From assembly GCA_040882165.1 (NCBI GenBank), contig JBBEBV010000008.1, forward strand, positions 1 through 48,883: a stretch of DNA of 48,883 nucleotides, given 5' to 3'. The position numbers were made by a program, and so were the translations under genes. The notes under the pieces were generated by a model. The model was not told the DNA's origin. It was given only the letters and a program-made list of their open reading frames with translations, and ran no database searches. Each line of letters starts with the position of its first letter. The stretch's first letter is position 1. Positions 1,579 to 10,695 of the stretch are shown in pieces. Source of the DNA: Bacteroidota bacterium. GTDB lineage: Bacteria > Bacteroidota > Ignavibacteria > UBA10030.

Positions 1579-3966
1579 ATGGGATTGCAGGCAATCATAC
1601 TCGGGGTCCTGATGTCGGCAGGTGTATCCATGGGAATCATGAACCAAGAGACCACCGCTATCGATATTCACAACGATCGGGTCCGAATTGTTATCGAACG
1701 GCAGGAGAGGAATTCCGTCGAGCGGTACTATGCGAAGAGAGGGGACGCATGGGACCTGTTGCTCGAAAGCGGCAGCGGACTGAGAGCGGATCCTTCTCTC
1801 AGGGCAAACGGGATCGAACAGGATTTTCACGTTATGAGGATACGCGCGCTTCCCGCCACGGAGAATGAACAAACCGTCATTCTTGAGGGGACCCTTGGGC
1901 CGTTCACCCTTCGCAAGATCATCGCCCTGCGGAGCGAGGAGCCCTTTGTCCGGATCGATGTTCTTCTCCATGTGGACCATCAGGTTTCGCTGACGCATGT
2001 TCTTTCGACATACTCGTTTGTTCCCGGGGGAAAGCGGTATCCTGCGGCTGAAGTACCGGAGTTTCTGTACACACCACAACTGCGCCCGGAGCCTGAGCAT
2101 GTCATCGCCGACCATACGTTTCGCTCCCCTGCGTTGATGATGCAGAACAAGGGATACTTTGCAGCCCTGGTGCCGGATCTCTTTACCATTGCGCAGAAAA
2201 ACCGGCCATTACGGGCCATTGCCGATTTTCAGGTGAAGACGGCGGACGCCCCGTTCATGTCCTTTGGACTTCAAAACTGGATTCAAGAGCCGTACCGTTT
2301 ACGAAACACCCATGTCTATTATACGGCGCCGGATTCGCTCTCAGTGCAACTGGACAATGCTTCGGTTGCGTATGGGTTCTACCTGTTCCTCGATGCGGAA
2401 GCGCCCCTGCGTACCGCCTATCAACGCGTGGTGCGATTTCAGTGGGAGGAATATGGAAAACGAAATATCCAGGAGCCAAAAGGACCCCAGTCCGAGCCAT
2501 TCTCGTCGTATATCAAAAAGGCATGGTACGAGTTTGTTCCGCAGGTCGCTCTCGAAACCGAGTATCGGGGGGTTCCCGTTACCCTGCTGCGACAGGCGCG
2601 GCTCGCCTGGAGCAACAAGATGCACAAAGAGGCGGATAATGATGCGTGGTTCAATGTCTGGTTCAACTCGCTCCGGACTGCCTATGGGATGTATCTGTAT
2701 GGCAGGCGTGTGGAAGACCGGCAGTTGCAGGCACGGGCAACAGGTGTCTTGAATCTGGCCTTGCTTGCTCCGCAACACAAGGGGATCGCCCCTTCGATTT
2801 TTTACACTGACAGTACGGGTGGGCACTGGGTGGCAGATCAGGCATGGGGAGGAATCTCGAACGGTGAGTATCTCTCGATGTTCCATAACGCATGGACGAA
2901 CTACTGGTTGCTGCAATGGTCCGATTTGGTACCGGAACGGAAAACGGAAATAGAAACATACGGAAGAGCCTTTGCGGATTTCCTGATAGCACACCAACAG
3001 CCGACGGGTGTCATCCCCTCATGGTATCATCCCGAAACGCTCGCACCCGCGGAACAGTTGCGTGATGAAAACGCCGAAACGGCCGGCGCCGCGCTCTACC
3101 TCGCGGAGTTCTTTGCGCGGATAAAAGAGGAACGGTACCTGGCTGCCTCCGAACGGGCGATGAGTTATATTTTTGAGCAGATTCTCCCGGAGCATAAATG
3201 GTTCGATTATGAGACATTTTTTTCCTGTTCGCGCAAACCACTGGGATTTTTCGATTCCTACACGCAGCAACATCCACAGAATACCCTCTCCATGCACCAA
3301 GCGGCTGAAGCATGCTATGAGCTCTTTCGTTTAACGAAGAAGGATCTGTATCGCGTGAAGGGTGTAGAGATTATGGACTATCTCAGCCTGTACCAGCAGG
3401 TCTGGAGCCCGGCGTGGCTCTCGTGCGAGTTGTTTGGAGGATTCGGTGTCCAGAATACAGACGGAGAGTGGAGCGACTCACGGCAGGGATACTTTGCCGT
3501 GACGTTGATGAACTATTATGACCTGACCGGTGAACGAGAGTATTTTGAACGCGGCGTGGCAGCCCTGCGCGCGATGTTCTCATTGTTTGAATCTCCCAAC
3601 TCTCCGCGCACAGCGGAGAACTATGCTCACGGAGGTCTCGACCAGCTTGCCGGCGTCACGGGATTGCATTGGGGGACGGGAAGCTCGGTCGTTTCCATTC
3701 ACCTGATCACCGAACGGTACGGGGATGCCTACGTCAACGTACAGGGCGGGTGGGGGGTCGGCATCGACGGGTGCCGCATACCGGATGTGAGGGTCAACGG
3801 CGAACGCATCGAAGTGACCGTGCTGGATAATGTGAACACCCCCCGATCCATTTTGATGAAATTTGACAAAATGGGGCGCAAGCAATACGAGATATTCGTG
3901 AACGGCGCTTCTCAAGGAAACAAAATGCGGGACGAACTGCACCAAGGACTATCGGTCGGCCTATGA
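1579..3966 (+). CDS. hypothetical secreted or membrane-anchored protein, probable (alpha/alpha)6 six-hairpin glycosidase-like fold, family not recognised
   Basis: 795-aa ORF with ATG directly after AAGGA and a hydrophobic N-terminus (QAIILGVLMSAGVSMGIM). It has aromatic-rich helical repeats (NAWTNYWLLQW, ETAGAALYLAEFF, AVTLMNYYDLTGEREYFERGVAALRAMF). Its stop overlaps the next start (ATGA at 3963-3966). Confidence 0.55.
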   Translation: MGLQAIILGVLMSAGVSMGIMNQETTAIDIHNDRVRIVIERQERNSVERYYAKRGDAWDLLLESGSGLRADPSLRANGIEQDFHVMRIRALPATENEQTVILEGTLGPFTLRKIIALRSEEPFVRIDVLLHVDHQVSLTHVLSTYSFVPGGKRYPAAEVPEFLYTPQLRPEPEHVIADHTFRSPALMMQNKGYFAALVPDLFTIAQKNRPLRAIADFQVKTADAPFMSFGLQNWIQEPYRLRNTHVYYTAPDSLSVQLDNASVAYGFYLFLDAEAPLRTAYQRVVRFQWEEYGKRNIQEPKGPQSEPFSSYIKKAWYEFVPQVALETEYRGVPVTLLRQARLAWSNKMHKEADNDAWFNVWFNSLRTAYGMYLYGRRVEDRQLQARATGVLNLALLAPQHKGIAPSIFYTDSTGGHWVADQAWGGISNGEYLSMFHNAWTNYWLLQWSDLVPERKTEIETYGRAFADFLIAHQQPTGVIPSWYHPETLAPAEQLRDENAETAGAALYLAEFFARIKEERYLAASERAMSYIFEQILPEHKWFDYETFFSCSRKPLGFFDSYTQQHPQNTLSMHQAAEACYELFRLTKKDLYRVKGVEIMDYLSLYQQVWSPAWLSCELFGGFGVQNTDGEWSDSRQGYFAVTLMNYYDLTGEREYFERGVAALRAMFSLFESPNSPRTAENYAHGGLDQLAGVTGLHWGTGSSVVSIHLITERYGDAYVNVQGGWGVGIDGCRIPDVRVNGERIEVTVLDNVNTPRSILMKFDKMGRKQYEIFVNGASQGNKMRDELHQGLSVGL

Positions 3967-8874: not shown

Positions 8875-10695
8875 ATGAAATCTCTCCTCGTCTTCGGTTG
8901 TTTGATGATCTTGTGTGTGAGTGGAGCATCCGCTCAGATAGTCGACCGTGCCACCTATCTGAAGGAATTTCAACAACGGGTGAAGTACCTGGAGACAGCG
9001 TACGACACGTCGCAGGCTGTGGGATTCTACCAGATCGCCGCACGCTATAAACTCAATTCAAACATTCGTCAGGCCGACAGCATGTTTGTCCACGCGCTCA
9101 AGGTTCCACGCGGCGATATGTTTTGGATGTTTCCGGTTATCGGGGCCTACCTGCAGGGGGTGGACAAAATGTCCCCCGAGACCAAGGCCGTGGTGCGCAA
9201 TGCATGGAAAACGTACGCTCCGTACCGTGGCGACACGGAAAACCACTGGGCGATGTACTATGCCTCCCTCTTTCTTGCAGCGGAACAATGGCCCAACCTC
9301 CCCGGCTCCGAGTGGTACAATGGTAAATCCTCTGATGAGAATCGTGAGGAGTCGAGGGAATACCTGTTCGATTGGGCGCGCATCACCACCACGATCGGAC
9401 AGGGGGAATTCGACTCCCCGGATTATTTTGCAGAGTATGCCATTTCAACCATCCTTCTTGCCCAATTTGCCCGGGATCCCCATGTGCAGAAACTTGGCTC
9501 CATGTTGTCGGAATACGTCTTTGCGGATTTTGCCGCAGAACATCTGGATGGACAGTATTTGGGGGGATTTAGTCGTATTTATCAGCCTGCCGTCTACAAG
9601 CCGCTGCAGTCGACAGCCTCGGCGTTTGCCTGGCTCTATTTCGGAACGGGAGAACAGACCACCTCCAGTTGGATTCTGTTGCCCGCCCTTTCCGGTTACG
9701 AGCTCCCAGAGATTATCTATCAGATCGCACTGGACCGGAGTAAAACGTACATCCACAAGGAGAGGAAACGTGTCCGCAACGTGATCCGGTACGGGGATGA
9801 AAAAAATCCTCCGGTCTACAAGTACACGTACGTGACAAAGGATTACGGCATCGGTTCCCTGATGGGAGGAATTCTCCAGCCAATCCAACAACATACCTGG
9901 GGGGTTCGGTACACCTACGGCCGGCCCTACACCACGATCTTCGGTCTGCACCCCTATTGGTCCGGCCTGGAACTCGGGATGTTCTTCCCCGAAGAGGTGA
10001 AGACCCTCATCGCCGATGTTGTCGCATCGAAGGGGACGTACAATAATCCCGATAAGTGGACGAGTGCATCCCCCTTTGAGCGGACGTTCCAACACAAGAA
10101 TACGTTGATCGCTCTGTACGATATCGATCCCGGAACCACCGCAGAACATATCAACGGGTTCTTTCCTCGCAACCTCGAGGAGCGGATTGTGGATCCGACG
10201 GGCTGGATTGTAAGCAAGGCCGGTGACACGTACGTCGGCTGGTACCCCCTCCAGGAGTATGAGTGGAAGGAGGAGTTTGAGACGCCGGCGAACTCTTTGA
10301 ACGATATCGGACGCCCGCAGCTGGAGCGGGTGAGGGAGACCGGAAACTGGCGCCTGCGCAGTCACAAGCTGCAAAACGGTTACGTGGTGGAGGTACGGTC
10401 GAAGGATGAAATCGGATCGTTTGAACGATTCCGTGCCGCGCTGAAGAAAACGGTTCCCAAAGGGACGATGGAACCGGGGGCCGTTTCGGTCGACTACACC
10501 AGCATCGGTGGTGAGAAAATGCACTTCCGCTTTCCGGACGAACGGAAGTTGAACGGGAAAGTCGTCGATCTGTCCAGGACCAAATTATTTGAAGGGCCCT
10601 TCCTCCATGCGGAAGTGGGAAGCCAGAAGTTGACCATGACATATAAAAACAAGAAACGCGTTCTGGATTTTAAGACATTGACCGTAAAGGAGTAA
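8875..10695 (+). CDS. hypothetical secreted protein (606 aa), paralog B of the 5006-6784 family
   Basis: Trimmed from 8752 to the ATG at 8875, which gives the signal peptide MKSLLVFGCLMILCVSGASAQ. It is colinear with 5006-6784 along the whole length (YRGDTENHWAMYY, GQGEFDSPDY, DFAAEHLDG, KRVRNVIR, GGILQPIQQHTW, HINGFFP, NWRLRSH). Confidence 0.7.
   Translation: MKSLLVFGCLMILCVSGASAQIVDRATYLKEFQQRVKYLETAYDTSQAVGFYQIAARYKLNSNIRQADSMFVHALKVPRGDMFWMFPVIGAYLQGVDKMSPETKAVVRNAWKTYAPYRGDTENHWAMYYASLFLAAEQWPNLPGSEWYNGKSSDENREESREYLFDWARITTTIGQGEFDSPDYFAEYAISTILLAQFARDPHVQKLGSMLSEYVFADFAAEHLDGQYLGGFSRIYQPAVYKPLQSTASAFAWLYFGTGEQTTSSWILLPALSGYELPEIIYQIALDRSKTYIHKERKRVRNVIRYGDEKNPPVYKYTYVTKDYGIGSLMGGILQPIQQHTWGVRYTYGRPYTTIFGLHPYWSGLELGMFFPEEVKTLIADVVASKGTYNNPDKWTSASPFERTFQHKNTLIALYDIDPGTTAEHINGFFPRNLEERIVDPTGWIVSKAGDTYVGWYPLQEYEWKEEFETPANSLNDIGRPQLERVRETGNWRLRSHKLQNGYVVEVRSKDEIGSFERFRAALKKTVPKGTMEPGAVSVDYTSIGGEKMHFRFPDERKLNGKVVDLSRTKLFEGPFLHAEVGSQKLTMTYKNKKRVLDFKTLTVKE

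What the first reader, a model, noticed from the sequence alone, without database searches (positions are those of the whole stretch)
1579..10695. Translationally coupled array alternating secreted BNR propellers with large proteins of unknown family
Six consecutive genes encode signal-peptide proteins in this order: a 795-aa six-hairpin-like protein, a propeller, a 592-aa unknown, a propeller, a propeller and a 606-aa unknown. Three junctions are stop/start overlaps (ATGA at 3963 and 5006, TAATG at 6784), and another gap is only 7 nt.

Single-domain ~335-aa Asp-box propellers are usually left as generic BNR proteins. Their repeated, tightly coupled pairing with a paralogous ~600-aa partner suggests stoichiometric complexes or a modular extracellular depolymerase system that has not been characterised.
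Basis: partly seen in the sequence, partly recalled or inferred. Interest (0 to 1): 0.65.

Follow-up and report, generated by a model that had tools for sequence, protein, structure and literature searches.

The report
Propeller plus lyase-fold enzyme pairs
An uncultured Ignavibacteria genome carries a conserved, unstudied gene module in which a small seven-bladed propeller protein is always encoded beside, or fused to, a 600-residue protein with the fold of polysaccharide lyases; it is probably a two-part secreted enzyme for breaking down an acidic sugar polymer.

Summary
Six same-strand genes (1579-10695) encode one 795-aa protein, three ~335-aa BNR propellers and two paralogous ~600-aa proteins, joined by ATGA, ATGA and TAATG overlaps and a 7-nt gap.

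The overlaps are not special. Seven other junctions in the window also overlap.

The propeller/600-aa pairing is real.
- Starting from the 600-aa protein, 83 of 90 testable genes in 75 genome loci have an adjacent propeller.
- Starting from the propeller, 100 of 109 testable genes in 80 metagenome loci lie next to a 600-aa gene.
- The two are fused in one polypeptide, in both orders, in many divergent lineages. This holds for 17 of 88 near-full-length 50%-cluster representatives.

The 600-aa family (~2,900 representatives) has no Pfam, NCBIfam or PDB sequence match. Its model has the helical-toroid plus beta-sandwich fold of PL12/15/33/35 lyases. Invariant N116-H117, Y177 and H345 are spaced like their Asn/His-Tyr-His catalytic residues. 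Distant members carry CBMs and dockerins.

Best reading: a new lyase-fold CAZyme family with a dedicated propeller partner. Complex formation, activity and substrate remain untested. Interest is moderate.

The parts
1579..3966 (+). G1, 795 aa: signal-like N-terminus, N-terminal beta-sandwich, (alpha/alpha)6 barrel and C-terminal beta-sandwich. A sequence-orphan CAZyme-like protein that is always followed by a propeller gene.
   Evidence: No Pfam hit. AF2 model pLDDT 81. Foldseek matches GH94 phosphorylases, PL27 BACCELL_00875, GH63 and GH76. Some homologues give weak GH76 or GH88 Pfam hits, and P0219 is a G1 + G2-type propeller fusion.
3963..5009 (+). G2, 348 aa: seven-bladed BNR/Asp-box propeller, the subtype found upstream of G3-type proteins.
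   Evidence: Pfam Sortilin-Vps10 81 bits and BNR 57 bits. PDB sequence hits to GH74 enzymes and 3b7f. G2-type upstream of G3-type in 40 loci. Fused to G3-type in L030, P0241 and P0242.
5006..6784 (+). G3, 592 aa: 'S' family protein. Signal peptide, helical incomplete toroid (~20-295) and beta-sandwich (~296-592). Candidate catalytic subunit.
   Evidence: No Pfam, NCBIfam or PDB sequence hit. AF2 pLDDT 83, pTM 0.87. Foldseek top hits are heparinase III, GAGase VII, PL15, PL33, DS-epimerase and PL8.
5336..5359 (+). RGDTENHW motif of G3 (R111-W118). It holds the invariant N116-H117, proposed as charge neutraliser and base. The G6 equivalent is at 9226-9249.
   Evidence: Invariant in 27 diverse members. 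This is the most conserved block of the protein. Coordinates. The spacing analogy to PL33 N238, PL21 H202 and PL15 H311 (PMC11848413) is an inference.
5507..5536 (+). GQGEFDSPTY motif of G3, ending in the invariant Y177, the proposed catalytic Tyr. The G6 equivalent is at 9397-9426.
   Evidence: Y177 lies 60 residues after H117, compared with 53-55 residues in PL33, PL21 and PL15. Inference.
6011..6046 (+). GGILQPIQQHTW motif of G3, with the invariant H345 in the beta-sandwich, the proposed partner of the Tyr. The G6 equivalent is at 9865-9900.
   Evidence: H345 lies 168 residues after Y177, compared with 153 in PL33, and by my recollection 149 in PL21 and 166 in PL15. Inference.
6784..7800 (+). 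G4, 338 aa: seven-bladed BNR propeller, an extra copy downstream of G3. It is absent in some relatives and fused to the C-terminus of G3-type proteins in others.
   Evidence: Pfam Sortilin-Vps10 66 bits. G3-type followed by G4-type in 26 loci. S-P fusions in L038, P0266, P0267 and P0273.
7808..8812 (+). G5, 334 aa: seven-bladed BNR propeller, the subtype found upstream of G6-type proteins.
   Evidence: Pfam Sortilin-Vps10 70 bits and PSII_BNR 38 bits. G5-type upstream of G6-type in 31 loci.
8875..10695 (+). G6, 606 aa: second 'S' family protein, 44% identical to G3, with the same invariant motifs.
   Evidence: No Pfam or NCBIfam hit.
31..1575 (+). Context: double-size Amidohydro_2 protein ending 3 nt before G1. 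It is conserved directly upstream of G1 in relatives.
10816..16564 (+). Context: a conserved downstream cytoplasmic block. It holds a PfkB sugar kinase (10816-11754), a GH38 alpha-mannosidase (11760-14438), a DeoC/LacD-type aldolase (14479-15309) and a GFO/IDH/MocA oxidoreductase (15440-16564).
   Evidence: Synteny in L001-L032 and others.

Best explanation
The repeating unit is a two-part secreted (periplasmic or extracellular) carbohydrate-active enzyme. The ~600-aa 'S' protein (G3, G6) is the catalytic part. It is a very divergent, sequence-orphan member of the helical-toroid plus beta-sandwich lyase/epimerase superfamily (PL12, PL15, PL17, PL21, PL33, PL39, DS-epimerase). It most likely abstracts the C5 proton of a uronic acid in an anionic polysaccharide and cleaves by beta-elimination. 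The proposed residues are N116/H117 (charge neutraliser/base), Y177 (acid/base) and H345 (activator of the Tyr).

The ~335-aa seven-bladed BNR propeller (G2, G5, and the extra G4) is a dedicated partner. It either binds S non-covalently or is fused to it. It supplies substrate recognition, or part of the binding cleft, or a second side-chain-removing activity.

G1 is an exported beta-sandwich/(alpha/alpha)6 enzyme that is also always followed by a propeller. It probably trims the oligosaccharide products. The downstream cytoplasmic enzymes (PfkB kinase, GH38, aldolase, GFO oxidoreductase and others) consume the released sugars.

Shown: gene structure; paralogy; conservation of adjacency in both directions; fusions; co-variation of subtypes; fold; invariant residues; CBM and dockerin fusions in relatives.

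Inferred: physical complex, lyase chemistry, residue roles, cellular location, substrate.
For: 1. Adjacency starting from S: in 75 genome loci, 83 of 90 S genes with both flanks testable have a propeller within 400 nt on the same strand.
2. Reciprocal test starting from the propeller: 100 of 109 testable single-domain propeller genes in 80 metagenome loci lie directly next to an S gene. Seven of the 9 exceptions are G1-P-P-S arrays.
3. Fusions exist in both orders. P-S occurs in L030, L057, P0241/242/278/284-293 and others. S-P occurs in L038 and P0266/267/273. The internal signal peptide is lost in the three I read. Of 88 near-full-length 50%-cluster representatives, 17 are fused. Fused forms go down to 30-40% identity, so the fusions are old and probably arose more than once.
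4. Subtypes co-vary: G2-type upstream of G3-type 40 times, G5-type upstream of G6-type 31 times, G2-type upstream of G6-type never. Array variants lose G2 and G3 together.
5. The S model (pLDDT 83, pTM 0.87) has a toroid + sandwich. Foldseek gives probability 1.0 and E 7e-6 to 5e-4 against heparinase III, GAGase VII, PL15 Atu3025, PL33 BT4410, DS-epi1 and PL8.
6. Invariant N116-H117, Y177 and H345 have the linear spacing (60 and 168 residues) and the domain positions of the shared Asn/His-Tyr-His apparatus described for PL12/15/17/21/33/39 and DS-epi1 (PMC11848413 read).
7. Eight invariant Arg/Lys residues fit an anionic substrate.
8. Distant S-domain proteins carry CBM9, F5/8-type-C, CBM35/GH115_C, BACON, Laminin_G_3, CARDB and dockerin I domains.
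9. Context: sugar-catabolic genes surround the array. Bona fide Hepar_II_III_C proteins sit in the same operon in relatives. KDG-kinase-like PfkB and KDPG aldolase lie next to a P-S fusion.
10. Signal-like N-termini are conserved.
Against: - No sequence-level link of S to any lyase family. Pfam, NCBIfam, PDB phmmer, two profile searches, and hhalign against the co-located Hepar_II_III_C family were all negative.
- Foldseek TM-scores are only 0.3-0.4.
- Residue roles rest on spacing, not on a superposition.
- No complex was predicted or measured.
- A mirror-tree test gave no pair-specific co-evolution signal.
- CAZymes often fuse independent modules, so fusion does not prove an interface.
- Known members of this lyase superfamily work as single chains.
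- The neighbouring catabolic genes (GH38, mannose-6-P-isomerase-like cupins, a levoglucosan-dehydrogenase-like GFO, DeoC-type aldolase) are not the textbook uronate pathway.
- A few S and P genes stand alone (L051, L147).
Confidence: 0.55

Rival explanations
1. There are two independent enzymes and no complex. The propeller is itself a glycosidase (GH74-like or another BNR hydrolase). It removes side chains or cuts the backbone of the same polymer, and S acts separately. Adjacency and fusion reflect co-regulation and the usual modular shuffling of CAZymes.
For: - The propellers match GH74 enzymes in sequence, E 1e-9 to 1e-16. They give sub-threshold hits to the NCBIfam 'F510_1955 family glycosylhydrolase'.
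- Polar residues outside the Asp-boxes are conserved: N105, E127, D177, E189, E230, Y257 and Y270.
- Each protein has its own signal peptide.
- G4 persists without G3 in G1>G4>G5>G6 arrays, and propellers also follow G1.
- The mirror-tree test found no pair-specific signal.
Against: - GH74 needs two tandem propellers to form its cleft. These proteins are single domains.
- Dedication is very high in both directions (92% each) and subtypes co-vary. This goes beyond what is typical for merely co-regulated enzymes.
- Several of the most conserved S segments have low model confidence in the monomer: 221-230, 301-320, 361-380 and 401-410. That fits partner- or substrate-dependent ordering.
Confidence: 0.25
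2. The two-part unit is the same, but S is not a lyase. It could be a uronyl C5-epimerase, as DS-epimerase is, or a glycoside hydrolase or phosphorylase that reuses the toroid + sandwich fold and modifies or cleaves a neutral or methylated glycan.
For: - DS-epimerase 1 is among the top fold matches and shares the catalytic apparatus with the lyases.
- The surrounding genes point to mannose and unusual sugars rather than classical uronate catabolism.
- URO-D-like and corrinoid methyltransferase genes recur next to P/S pairs.
Against: - Sixteen of the 17 fold matches with E <= 0.001 are lyases.
- There are many invariant basic residues.
- KDG-kinase-like and KDPG-aldolase genes lie beside a fused form.
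- Secreted bacterial enzymes with CBMs and dockerins are normally depolymerases.
Confidence: 0.15
3. The module is not carbohydrate-degrading at all. The propeller would be a Ycf48-like assembly or scaffold factor, and S and G1 would be periplasmic envelope proteins with a structural or biosynthetic role.
For: G2 and G5 pass the Pfam PSII_BNR (Ycf48) cut-off, at 30 and 38 bits against 27. Ycf48 is a single seven-bladed propeller of the same size that binds protein partners.
Against: - Sortilin-Vps10/BNR scores are higher than PSII_BNR scores, and the NCBIfam Ycf48 model is far below its cut-off.
- The host lineages are non-phototrophic.
- The context is 40+ kb of sugar-catabolic genes.
- S relatives carry CBMs and dockerins.
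Confidence: 0.05

Closest known systems
Toroid + beta-sandwich polysaccharide lyases and DS-epimerase (PL12 heparinase III, PL15 Atu3025, PL17, PL21 heparinase II, PL33 BT4410, PL35 GAGase VII, PL39, PL8; human DS-epi1)
   Same: - The two-domain fold of S: an N-terminal antiparallel helical toroid and a C-terminal antiparallel beta-sandwich.
- An invariant Asn/His, then Tyr about 60 residues later in the toroid, then His about 50 residues into the sandwich. This matches the shared apparatus described in PMC11848413.
- Many conserved basic residues.
- Secreted, with CBM-bearing relatives.
   Different: - No detectable sequence or profile similarity.
- The helical domain is shorter, about 275 aa against about 380 in PL33.
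- There is an almost obligatory seven-bladed propeller partner, either a separate gene or fused. I know of no such partner in these families (own knowledge; nothing found).
- Activity is untested.
GH74 xyloglucanases (e.g. 2cn3, 1sqj)
   Same: The propellers share BNR/Asp-box seven-bladed repeats with GH74 domains and give the best PDB sequence matches to them.
   Different: GH74 has two tandem propellers in one ~750-aa chain with the active site between them (own knowledge). Here the domains are single ~335-aa propellers paired with a non-propeller protein. The catalytic Asp pair was not examined.
Ycf48/HCF136 photosystem II assembly factor
   Same: A single seven-bladed propeller of ~330 aa that works by binding a protein partner. 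There are weak Pfam and PDB matches.
   Different: The hosts are non-phototrophic, the context is sugar catabolism, and the NCBIfam Ycf48 model scores 30-36 bits against a cut-off of 326.
GH94/GH15/GH63-type and PL27 beta-sandwich + (alpha/alpha)6 enzymes (for G1)
   Same: The domain order is N-terminal beta-sandwich, six-hairpin barrel, C-terminal beta-sandwich. Foldseek gives E 1e-9 to 1e-7.
   Different: G1 itself has no Pfam hit, and only a few homologues give sporadic weak GH76 or GH88 hits. TM-scores are 0.2-0.3 over the full length. G1 is exported, whereas GH94 phosphorylases are cytoplasmic (own knowledge).

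Membership tests
Toroid + beta-sandwich polysaccharide lyase superfamily (PL8/12/15/17/21/33/35/39) | Two-domain fold: (alpha/alpha)n toroid followed by an antiparallel beta-sandwich, with a cleft between them | tested here: met
   AF2 model of G3 has helices in 20-291 and strands in 297-591. Foldseek probability is 1.0 to 5jmf, 8khw, 3a0o, 8r6z, 6hzn and 1n7q. TM-scores are only 0.3-0.4.
Toroid + beta-sandwich polysaccharide lyase superfamily (PL8/12/15/17/21/33/35/39) | Sequence or profile membership in a described family (Pfam Hepar_II_III_N/C, Alginate_lyase, Lyase_8; NCBIfam; PDB sequences) | tested here: not met
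   No hit for G3, G6 or 27 diverse members. hhalign against the co-located Hepar_II_III_C family gave probability 0.1%. hhalign against the window's own Hepar_II_III_N protein gave probability 0.5%.
Toroid + beta-sandwich polysaccharide lyase superfamily (PL8/12/15/17/21/33/35/39) | Conserved Asn/His neutraliser or base, catalytic Tyr, and His/Tyr partner lining the +1 subsite | tested here: inconclusive
   N116-H117, Y177 and H345 are invariant. Their spacing and domain position match those of PL33 (N238, Y291, H444). No structural superposition was possible, so their geometry is unverified.
Toroid + beta-sandwich polysaccharide lyase superfamily (PL8/12/15/17/21/33/35/39) | Beta-elimination of a uronate-containing polysaccharide | not testable with these tools
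   This needs enzyme assays.
GH74 | BNR/Asp-box seven-bladed propeller repeats | tested here: met
   Pfam BNR and Sortilin-Vps10 hits. Seven conserved Trp residues at ~43-aa spacing in 122 propellers. PDB hits to GH74 chains.
GH74 | Two tandem propellers in one chain forming the catalytic cleft | tested here: not met
   G2, G4 and G5 are single 334-348-aa domains. Their fusion partners are S or G1, not a second propeller.
GH74 | Catalytic Asp pair | not tested
   The conserved acidic residues E127, D177, E189 and E230 were noted but not mapped onto GH74 structures.
Ycf48/HCF136 | Scores above the curated family cut-off, and a photosystem II context | tested here: not met
   NCBIfam PRK13684 scores 23-36 bits against a cut-off of 326. 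Pfam PSII_BNR passes marginally for G2 and G5, but Sortilin-Vps10 scores higher. There are no photosynthesis genes in the window.
Obligate heteromeric or two-part enzyme (propeller + S) | Partners co-occur in both directions across lineages | tested here: met
   83 of 90 starting from S and 100 of 109 starting from P. Lineages include Ignavibacteriota, KSB1, Calditrichota and Zhuqueibacterota.
Obligate heteromeric or two-part enzyme (propeller + S) | Partners are found fused in some genomes (Rosetta-stone criterion) | tested here: met
   P-S and S-P fusions. 17 of 88 representatives are fused.
Obligate heteromeric or two-part enzyme (propeller + S) | Physical interface, co-purification, and activity that depends on both parts | not testable with these tools
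The mirror-tree analysis was uninformative.

The most novel reading that the evidence does not exclude
The propeller is an obligate subunit that completes the substrate cleft of a new polysaccharide-lyase family. This would be the first widespread heteromeric (or propeller-fused) lyase architecture. It would be specific to FCB-group bacteria of sediments, groundwater and peat, and would act on a not-yet-identified acidic (possibly methylated, mannose-containing) environmental polysaccharide.
Probability: 0.3. Interest if true: 0.7.

Novelty: new variant of a known kind. Interest (0 to 1): 0.55.

Why it matters
- The S family has about 2,900 cluster representatives at 50% identity and is annotated everywhere as 'hypothetical protein'. 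Automated CAZyme annotation of Ignavibacteriota, KSB1, Calditrichota and related sediment and groundwater bacteria therefore probably misses it.
- If S is a lyase, it adds a new PL family and a new architecture, a lyase with a dedicated beta-propeller partner.
- It would also point to a polymer, and a degradation route, not yet accounted for in anoxic carbon turnover.
- The natural split and fused forms give a ready-made system for asking what a propeller adds to a toroid-type lyase.

Tried and rejected
- Sequence routes to name the 600-aa family all failed. These were Pfam and NCBIfam on G3 and G6, Pfam on 27 diverse members, PDB phmmer, PDB profile searches with A1 and A3, hhalign against the window's Hepar_II_III_N protein and the 802-aa orphan, and hhalign against a 30-sequence alignment of the co-located Hepar_II_III_C family.
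- BLASTP found no paralogy between G3 and the 746-aa protein, or between G1 and the 802-aa protein.
- Mirror-tree co-evolution on 16 loci was uninformative. All operon genes correlate at 0.7-0.96. After controlling for neighbours, G5-G6 (0.68) and G2-G3 (0.44) are no higher than the cross pairs.
- I considered a Tat-type 'hitch-hiking' export for G2, which has SRR in its N-terminus. I rejected it because the RR is not conserved in orthologues.
- Promoter and terminator scans found nothing that delimits the array.
- The neighbourhood of the OLB7 fusion gave no context.
- Literature searches for a characterised member or a propeller-dependent lyase found nothing relevant.
- I did not model a natural fusion or a pair.
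- One script only printed sequences and added nothing.

Full report
OBSERVATION

The six ORFs exist as described, all on the + strand:
- G1, 1579-3966, 795 aa.
- G2, 3963-5009, 348 aa.
- G3, 5006-6784, 592 aa.
- G4, 6784-7800, 338 aa.
- G5, 7808-8812, 334 aa.
- G6, 8875-10695, 606 aa.

The junctions are ATGA (3963), ATGA (5006), TAATG (6784), a 7-nt gap and a 62-nt gap. Overlap is not peculiar to the array. Of the 37 junctions between + strand genes in the window, 10 overlap, and 7 of those lie outside the array and join unrelated enzymes. G1 begins 3 nt after an Amidohydro_2 gene, and no terminator-like site delimits the array. The six genes are therefore an internal stretch of a long operon. 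The whole 48.9-kb window is a + strand sugar-catabolism island.

WHAT THE GENES ENCODE

The propellers (G2, G4, G5):
- They are BNR/Asp-box propellers, with Pfam Sortilin-Vps10 scores of 66-81 bits and BNR hits.
- They match GH74 enzymes, the uncharacterised 3b7f, and Ycf48 in PDB sequence searches.
- In an alignment of 122 relatives, seven conserved Trp residues at ~43-residue spacing indicate seven blades.

The 600-aa proteins (G3, G6; 'S' below):
- They are 44% identical paralogues (E 3e-178).
- They have no Pfam, NCBIfam or PDB sequence match.

G1:
- It has no family hit either.
- Its AF2 model (pLDDT 81) is an N-terminal beta-sandwich, an (alpha/alpha)6 barrel and a C-terminal beta-sandwish-type domain, that is, a C-terminal beta-sandwich.
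- Foldseek matches GH94 phosphorylases, PL27 BACCELL_00875, GH63 and GH76.

Hydrophobic signal-like N-termini are present in the six proteins. They are conserved in orthologues of G1, G3, G5 and G6, so these proteins are exported.

IS THE PAIRING CONSERVED?

A scan of one genome per species with an alignment of G3 relatives confirmed 315 loci. The 75 that were kept are all MAGs of FCB-group lineages: Ignavibacteriota, 'Bacteroidota' bins, KSB1, Calditrichota and Zhuqueibacterota. The closest is Ignavibacteria bacterium UBA6688, at 95% identity and fully syntenic.

- Starting from S: I searched all stop-to-stop ORFs of these loci with the window proteins. Of 90 S genes with both flanks testable, 83 have a propeller within 400 nt on the same strand. 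Most of the 7 exceptions have a propeller slightly further away or a frameshifted assembly.
- Minimal unit: in the more distant loci the only conserved unit is propeller + S.
- Starting from the propeller: 80 metagenome loci were fetched with a propeller alignment. Of 109 testable single-domain propeller genes, 100 lie directly beside an S gene. Seven of the 9 exceptions are G1-P-P-S arrays.
- Subtype co-variation: G2-type lies upstream of G3-type 40 times, G5-type upstream of G6-type 31 times, and G2-type upstream of G6-type never. The pair was therefore duplicated as a unit.
- Array variants in metagenomes: full G1>G2>G3>G4>G5>G6 (11 loci), loss of G2 and G3 together (G1>G4>G5>G6), or loss of G4 alone.
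- Spacing: by a heuristic choice of start codons, spacing is tight in most loci. About half of P-to-S junctions overlap or are 20 nt or less.

FUSIONS

The two parts occur in a single polypeptide, in both orders.
- P-S is found in L030 and L057. S-P is found in L038. In each, the signal peptide of the downstream part is replaced by a linker.
- A search with the L030 fusion found many more, down to 30-40% identity and including Rhodothermales and 'Chlorobi OLB7' proteins.
- In an exhaustive profile search of 1.84 billion cluster representatives, the S family has 2,929 members at E <= 1e-3, 1,451 at <= 1e-10 and 289 at <= 1e-30.
- Among the top 150 of these, 88 have a near-full S domain, and 17 of those carry a fused propeller.
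- One protein, P0219, fuses G1 to a G2-type propeller. In all loci examined, G1 is followed by a propeller gene.

WHAT S IS

The AF2 model of G3 (pLDDT 83, pTM 0.87) has a helical domain at ~20-295 and a beta-sandwich at ~296-592.

- Sixteen of the 17 Foldseek matches with E <= 0.001 are toroid + sandwich polysaccharide lyases, and the remaining one is the related DS-epimerase. They are heparinase III BT4657, GAGase VII, PL15 Atu3025, PL33 BT4410, human DS-epi1, PL8 hyaluronate lyase and an apo chondroitinase (9o3q). Identity is ~10% and TM-scores are 0.3-0.4.
- These enzymes are known to open and close about the domain hinge (PMC11848413), which may depress the TM-scores.
- Across 27 diverse S sequences the invariant residues include R111, D113, E115, N116, H117, E171, D173, Y177, D211, R227, R293, E301, R304, R306, R310, K321, H345, E371, E378, Y394 and K399.
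- The PL33 study describes an apparatus shared by PL12, PL15, PL17, PL21, PL33, PL39 and DS-epi1. For PL33 the residues are N238, Y291 and H444, and it names equivalents such as H202/Y257 in PL21 and H311/Y365 in PL15.
- In S, H117 to Y177 is 60 residues, against 53-55 in those families. Y177 to H345 is 168 residues, against 153 in PL33; the partner-His positions I recall for PL21 and PL15 give 149 and 166.
- Y177 lies ~118 residues before the end of the helical domain, against ~110 in PL33. H345 lies ~49 residues into the sandwich, against ~42 in PL33.
- This correspondence is an inference from linear position only. I could not superpose coordinates.
- Distant S-domain proteins are fused to CBM9, F5/8-type-C, CBM35/GH115_C, BACON, CHB_HEX_C, Laminin_G_3, CARDB and type I dockerin domains. 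That is the signature of a catalytic module of secreted glycan-degrading enzymes.
- Several of the most conserved S segments (221-230, 301-320, 361-380, 401-410) have low model confidence in the monomer. This is compatible with loops that order on substrate or on a partner.

CONTEXT

- Downstream of G6, and conserved in relatives, are a PfkB kinase, a cytoplasmic GH38, a DeoC/LacD-type aldolase and a GFO oxidoreductase. The GH38 is closest to mannosylglycerate hydrolase but below the cut-off. The GFO is closest to levoglucosan dehydrogenase, also below the cut-off.
- Further downstream are cupin, DUF455, FAA-hydrolase, enolase-superfamily, GH3 and other genes.
- Upstream in relatives are a GFO oxidoreductase, a genuine Hepar_II_III_C protein, a class III aminotransferase and the amidohydrolase.
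- A P-S fusion in another lineage sits beside a GFO, a URO-D-like gene, PfkB, KDPG aldolase, an AP_endonuc_2 gene and an ABC sugar transporter.
- The context says 'complex, probably acidic glycan' but does not identify the substrate.

MECHANISM AND RIVALS

My best explanation (confidence 0.55) is a two-part exported enzyme. S is the catalytic, lyase-type part acting on an anionic polysaccharide. The propeller is a dedicated partner that contributes binding, part of the cleft, or a second activity. G1 and the cytoplasmic genes process the products.

- Main rival (0.25): P and S are independent enzymes for the same polymer, and co-localisation and fusion are ordinary CAZyme modularity.
- Second rival (0.15): the unit is the same, but the chemistry is epimerase or hydrolase.
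- Third rival (0.05): a non-carbohydrate, Ycf48-like scaffold role. The context and the CBM and dockerin fusions argue against it.

COMPARISON AND NOVELTY

- S works like, and folds like, the PL12/15/21/33 superfamily. It fails the sequence-membership test for every described family, so I do not file it under any of them.
- The propellers share repeats with GH74 but fail its defining two-propeller architecture.
- I found no description of this family, or of a propeller-dependent lyase, in Pfam (2025 copy), NCBIfam (2026), PDB sequences or the paper library.
- CAZy/dbCAN and AlphaFold DB could not be consulted.
- I rate it a new variant of a known kind: a known fold and probable chemistry, with a new sequence family and a new, conserved partner architecture.
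- Interest is moderate (0.55). It would be useful and somewhat surprising to CAZyme specialists, but the function is still inferred.

LIMITS

- No multimer or fusion model could be run.
- There was no structural superposition.
- The mirror-tree co-evolution test was uninformative.
- Start codons in related loci were chosen heuristically.
- All related sequences come from MAGs or metagenomes, so a few apparent fusions or gaps could be assembly errors. The number, divergence and clean linkers of the fusions argue against that as a general explanation.

Noticed in passing
window 31216-35461: A corrinoid methyltransferase module sits inside a sugar-catabolism island of a non-methanogen. It has two URO-D-like genes (31216-32259, 32274-33398), a B12-binding protein (33429-34064) and an MtaB-like methyltransferase (34073-35461). 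URO-D-like genes also lie beside propeller/S pairs in L040, L047, L052, L054 and L079. This may be anaerobic O-demethylation of methylated sugars.
   Followed up: partly
window 35533-37941: An 802-aa protein with no Pfam, NCBIfam or PDB sequence match. Its homologues lie directly upstream of S-then-propeller pairs in L039-L041, L043 and L044 (near them in L036, L053 and L056), so it is probably another component of the same degradative system.
   Followed up: partly
window 31-1575: A double-size Amidohydro_2 protein (514 aa) ends 3 nt before G1. It is conserved directly upstream of G1 in about 40 related loci. In relatives it is preceded by a GFO oxidoreductase, a Hepar_II_III_C protein and a class III aminotransferase, which lie beyond the window's 5' end.
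   Followed up: partly
window 15440-16564: The best NCBIfam match of this GFO/IDH/MocA oxidoreductase is levoglucosan dehydrogenase (316 bits, cut-off 650). This hints at C3-oxidation of a glycoside or anhydro-sugar in the pathway.
   Followed up: no
window 11760-14438, 16610-17713, 38000-39151, 45426-47249: A cytoplasmic GH38 resembles mannosylglycerate hydrolase MngB (543 bits, cut-off 1138). With it are two mannose-6-phosphate-isomerase-like cupin proteins and a glycerate kinase. Together these suggest catabolism of a mannosyl compound.
   Followed up: no
window 27073-29313: A 746-aa protein with a weak Hepar_II_III_N hit (25.8 bits) overlaps the stop of a ROK kinase gene by 4 nt. It shows no detectable relation to G3 or G6.
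   Followed up: partly
window, whole length: Every gene with a family hit is on the + strand and GC skew is positive throughout. Long antisense 'shadow' ORFs, such as 11748-14447 (-) opposite GH38, are artefacts of composition. Overlaps of 4 nt or 1 nt are frequent between unrelated genes (19997, 22908, 26123, 27073, 43434, 45426, 47246).
   Followed up: yes
P0365, P0375, P0379, P0391, P0395, P0425: Giant multidomain proteins of 1,200-3,400 aa carry one or two S domains. They also carry CARDB, F5/8-type-C, CBM9, 3keto-disac_hyd, beta-helix, cohesin or dockerin domains. These are cellulosome-like or surface-display versions of the same catalytic module.
   Followed up: partly
L061, L066, L070, L074 and others (distant S genes): The S ORFs in several KSB1, Calditrichota and Zhuqueibacterota loci run about 230 residues past the S domain. 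The extension was not identified. In P0297 the equivalent extension is a CBM9.
   Followed up: no
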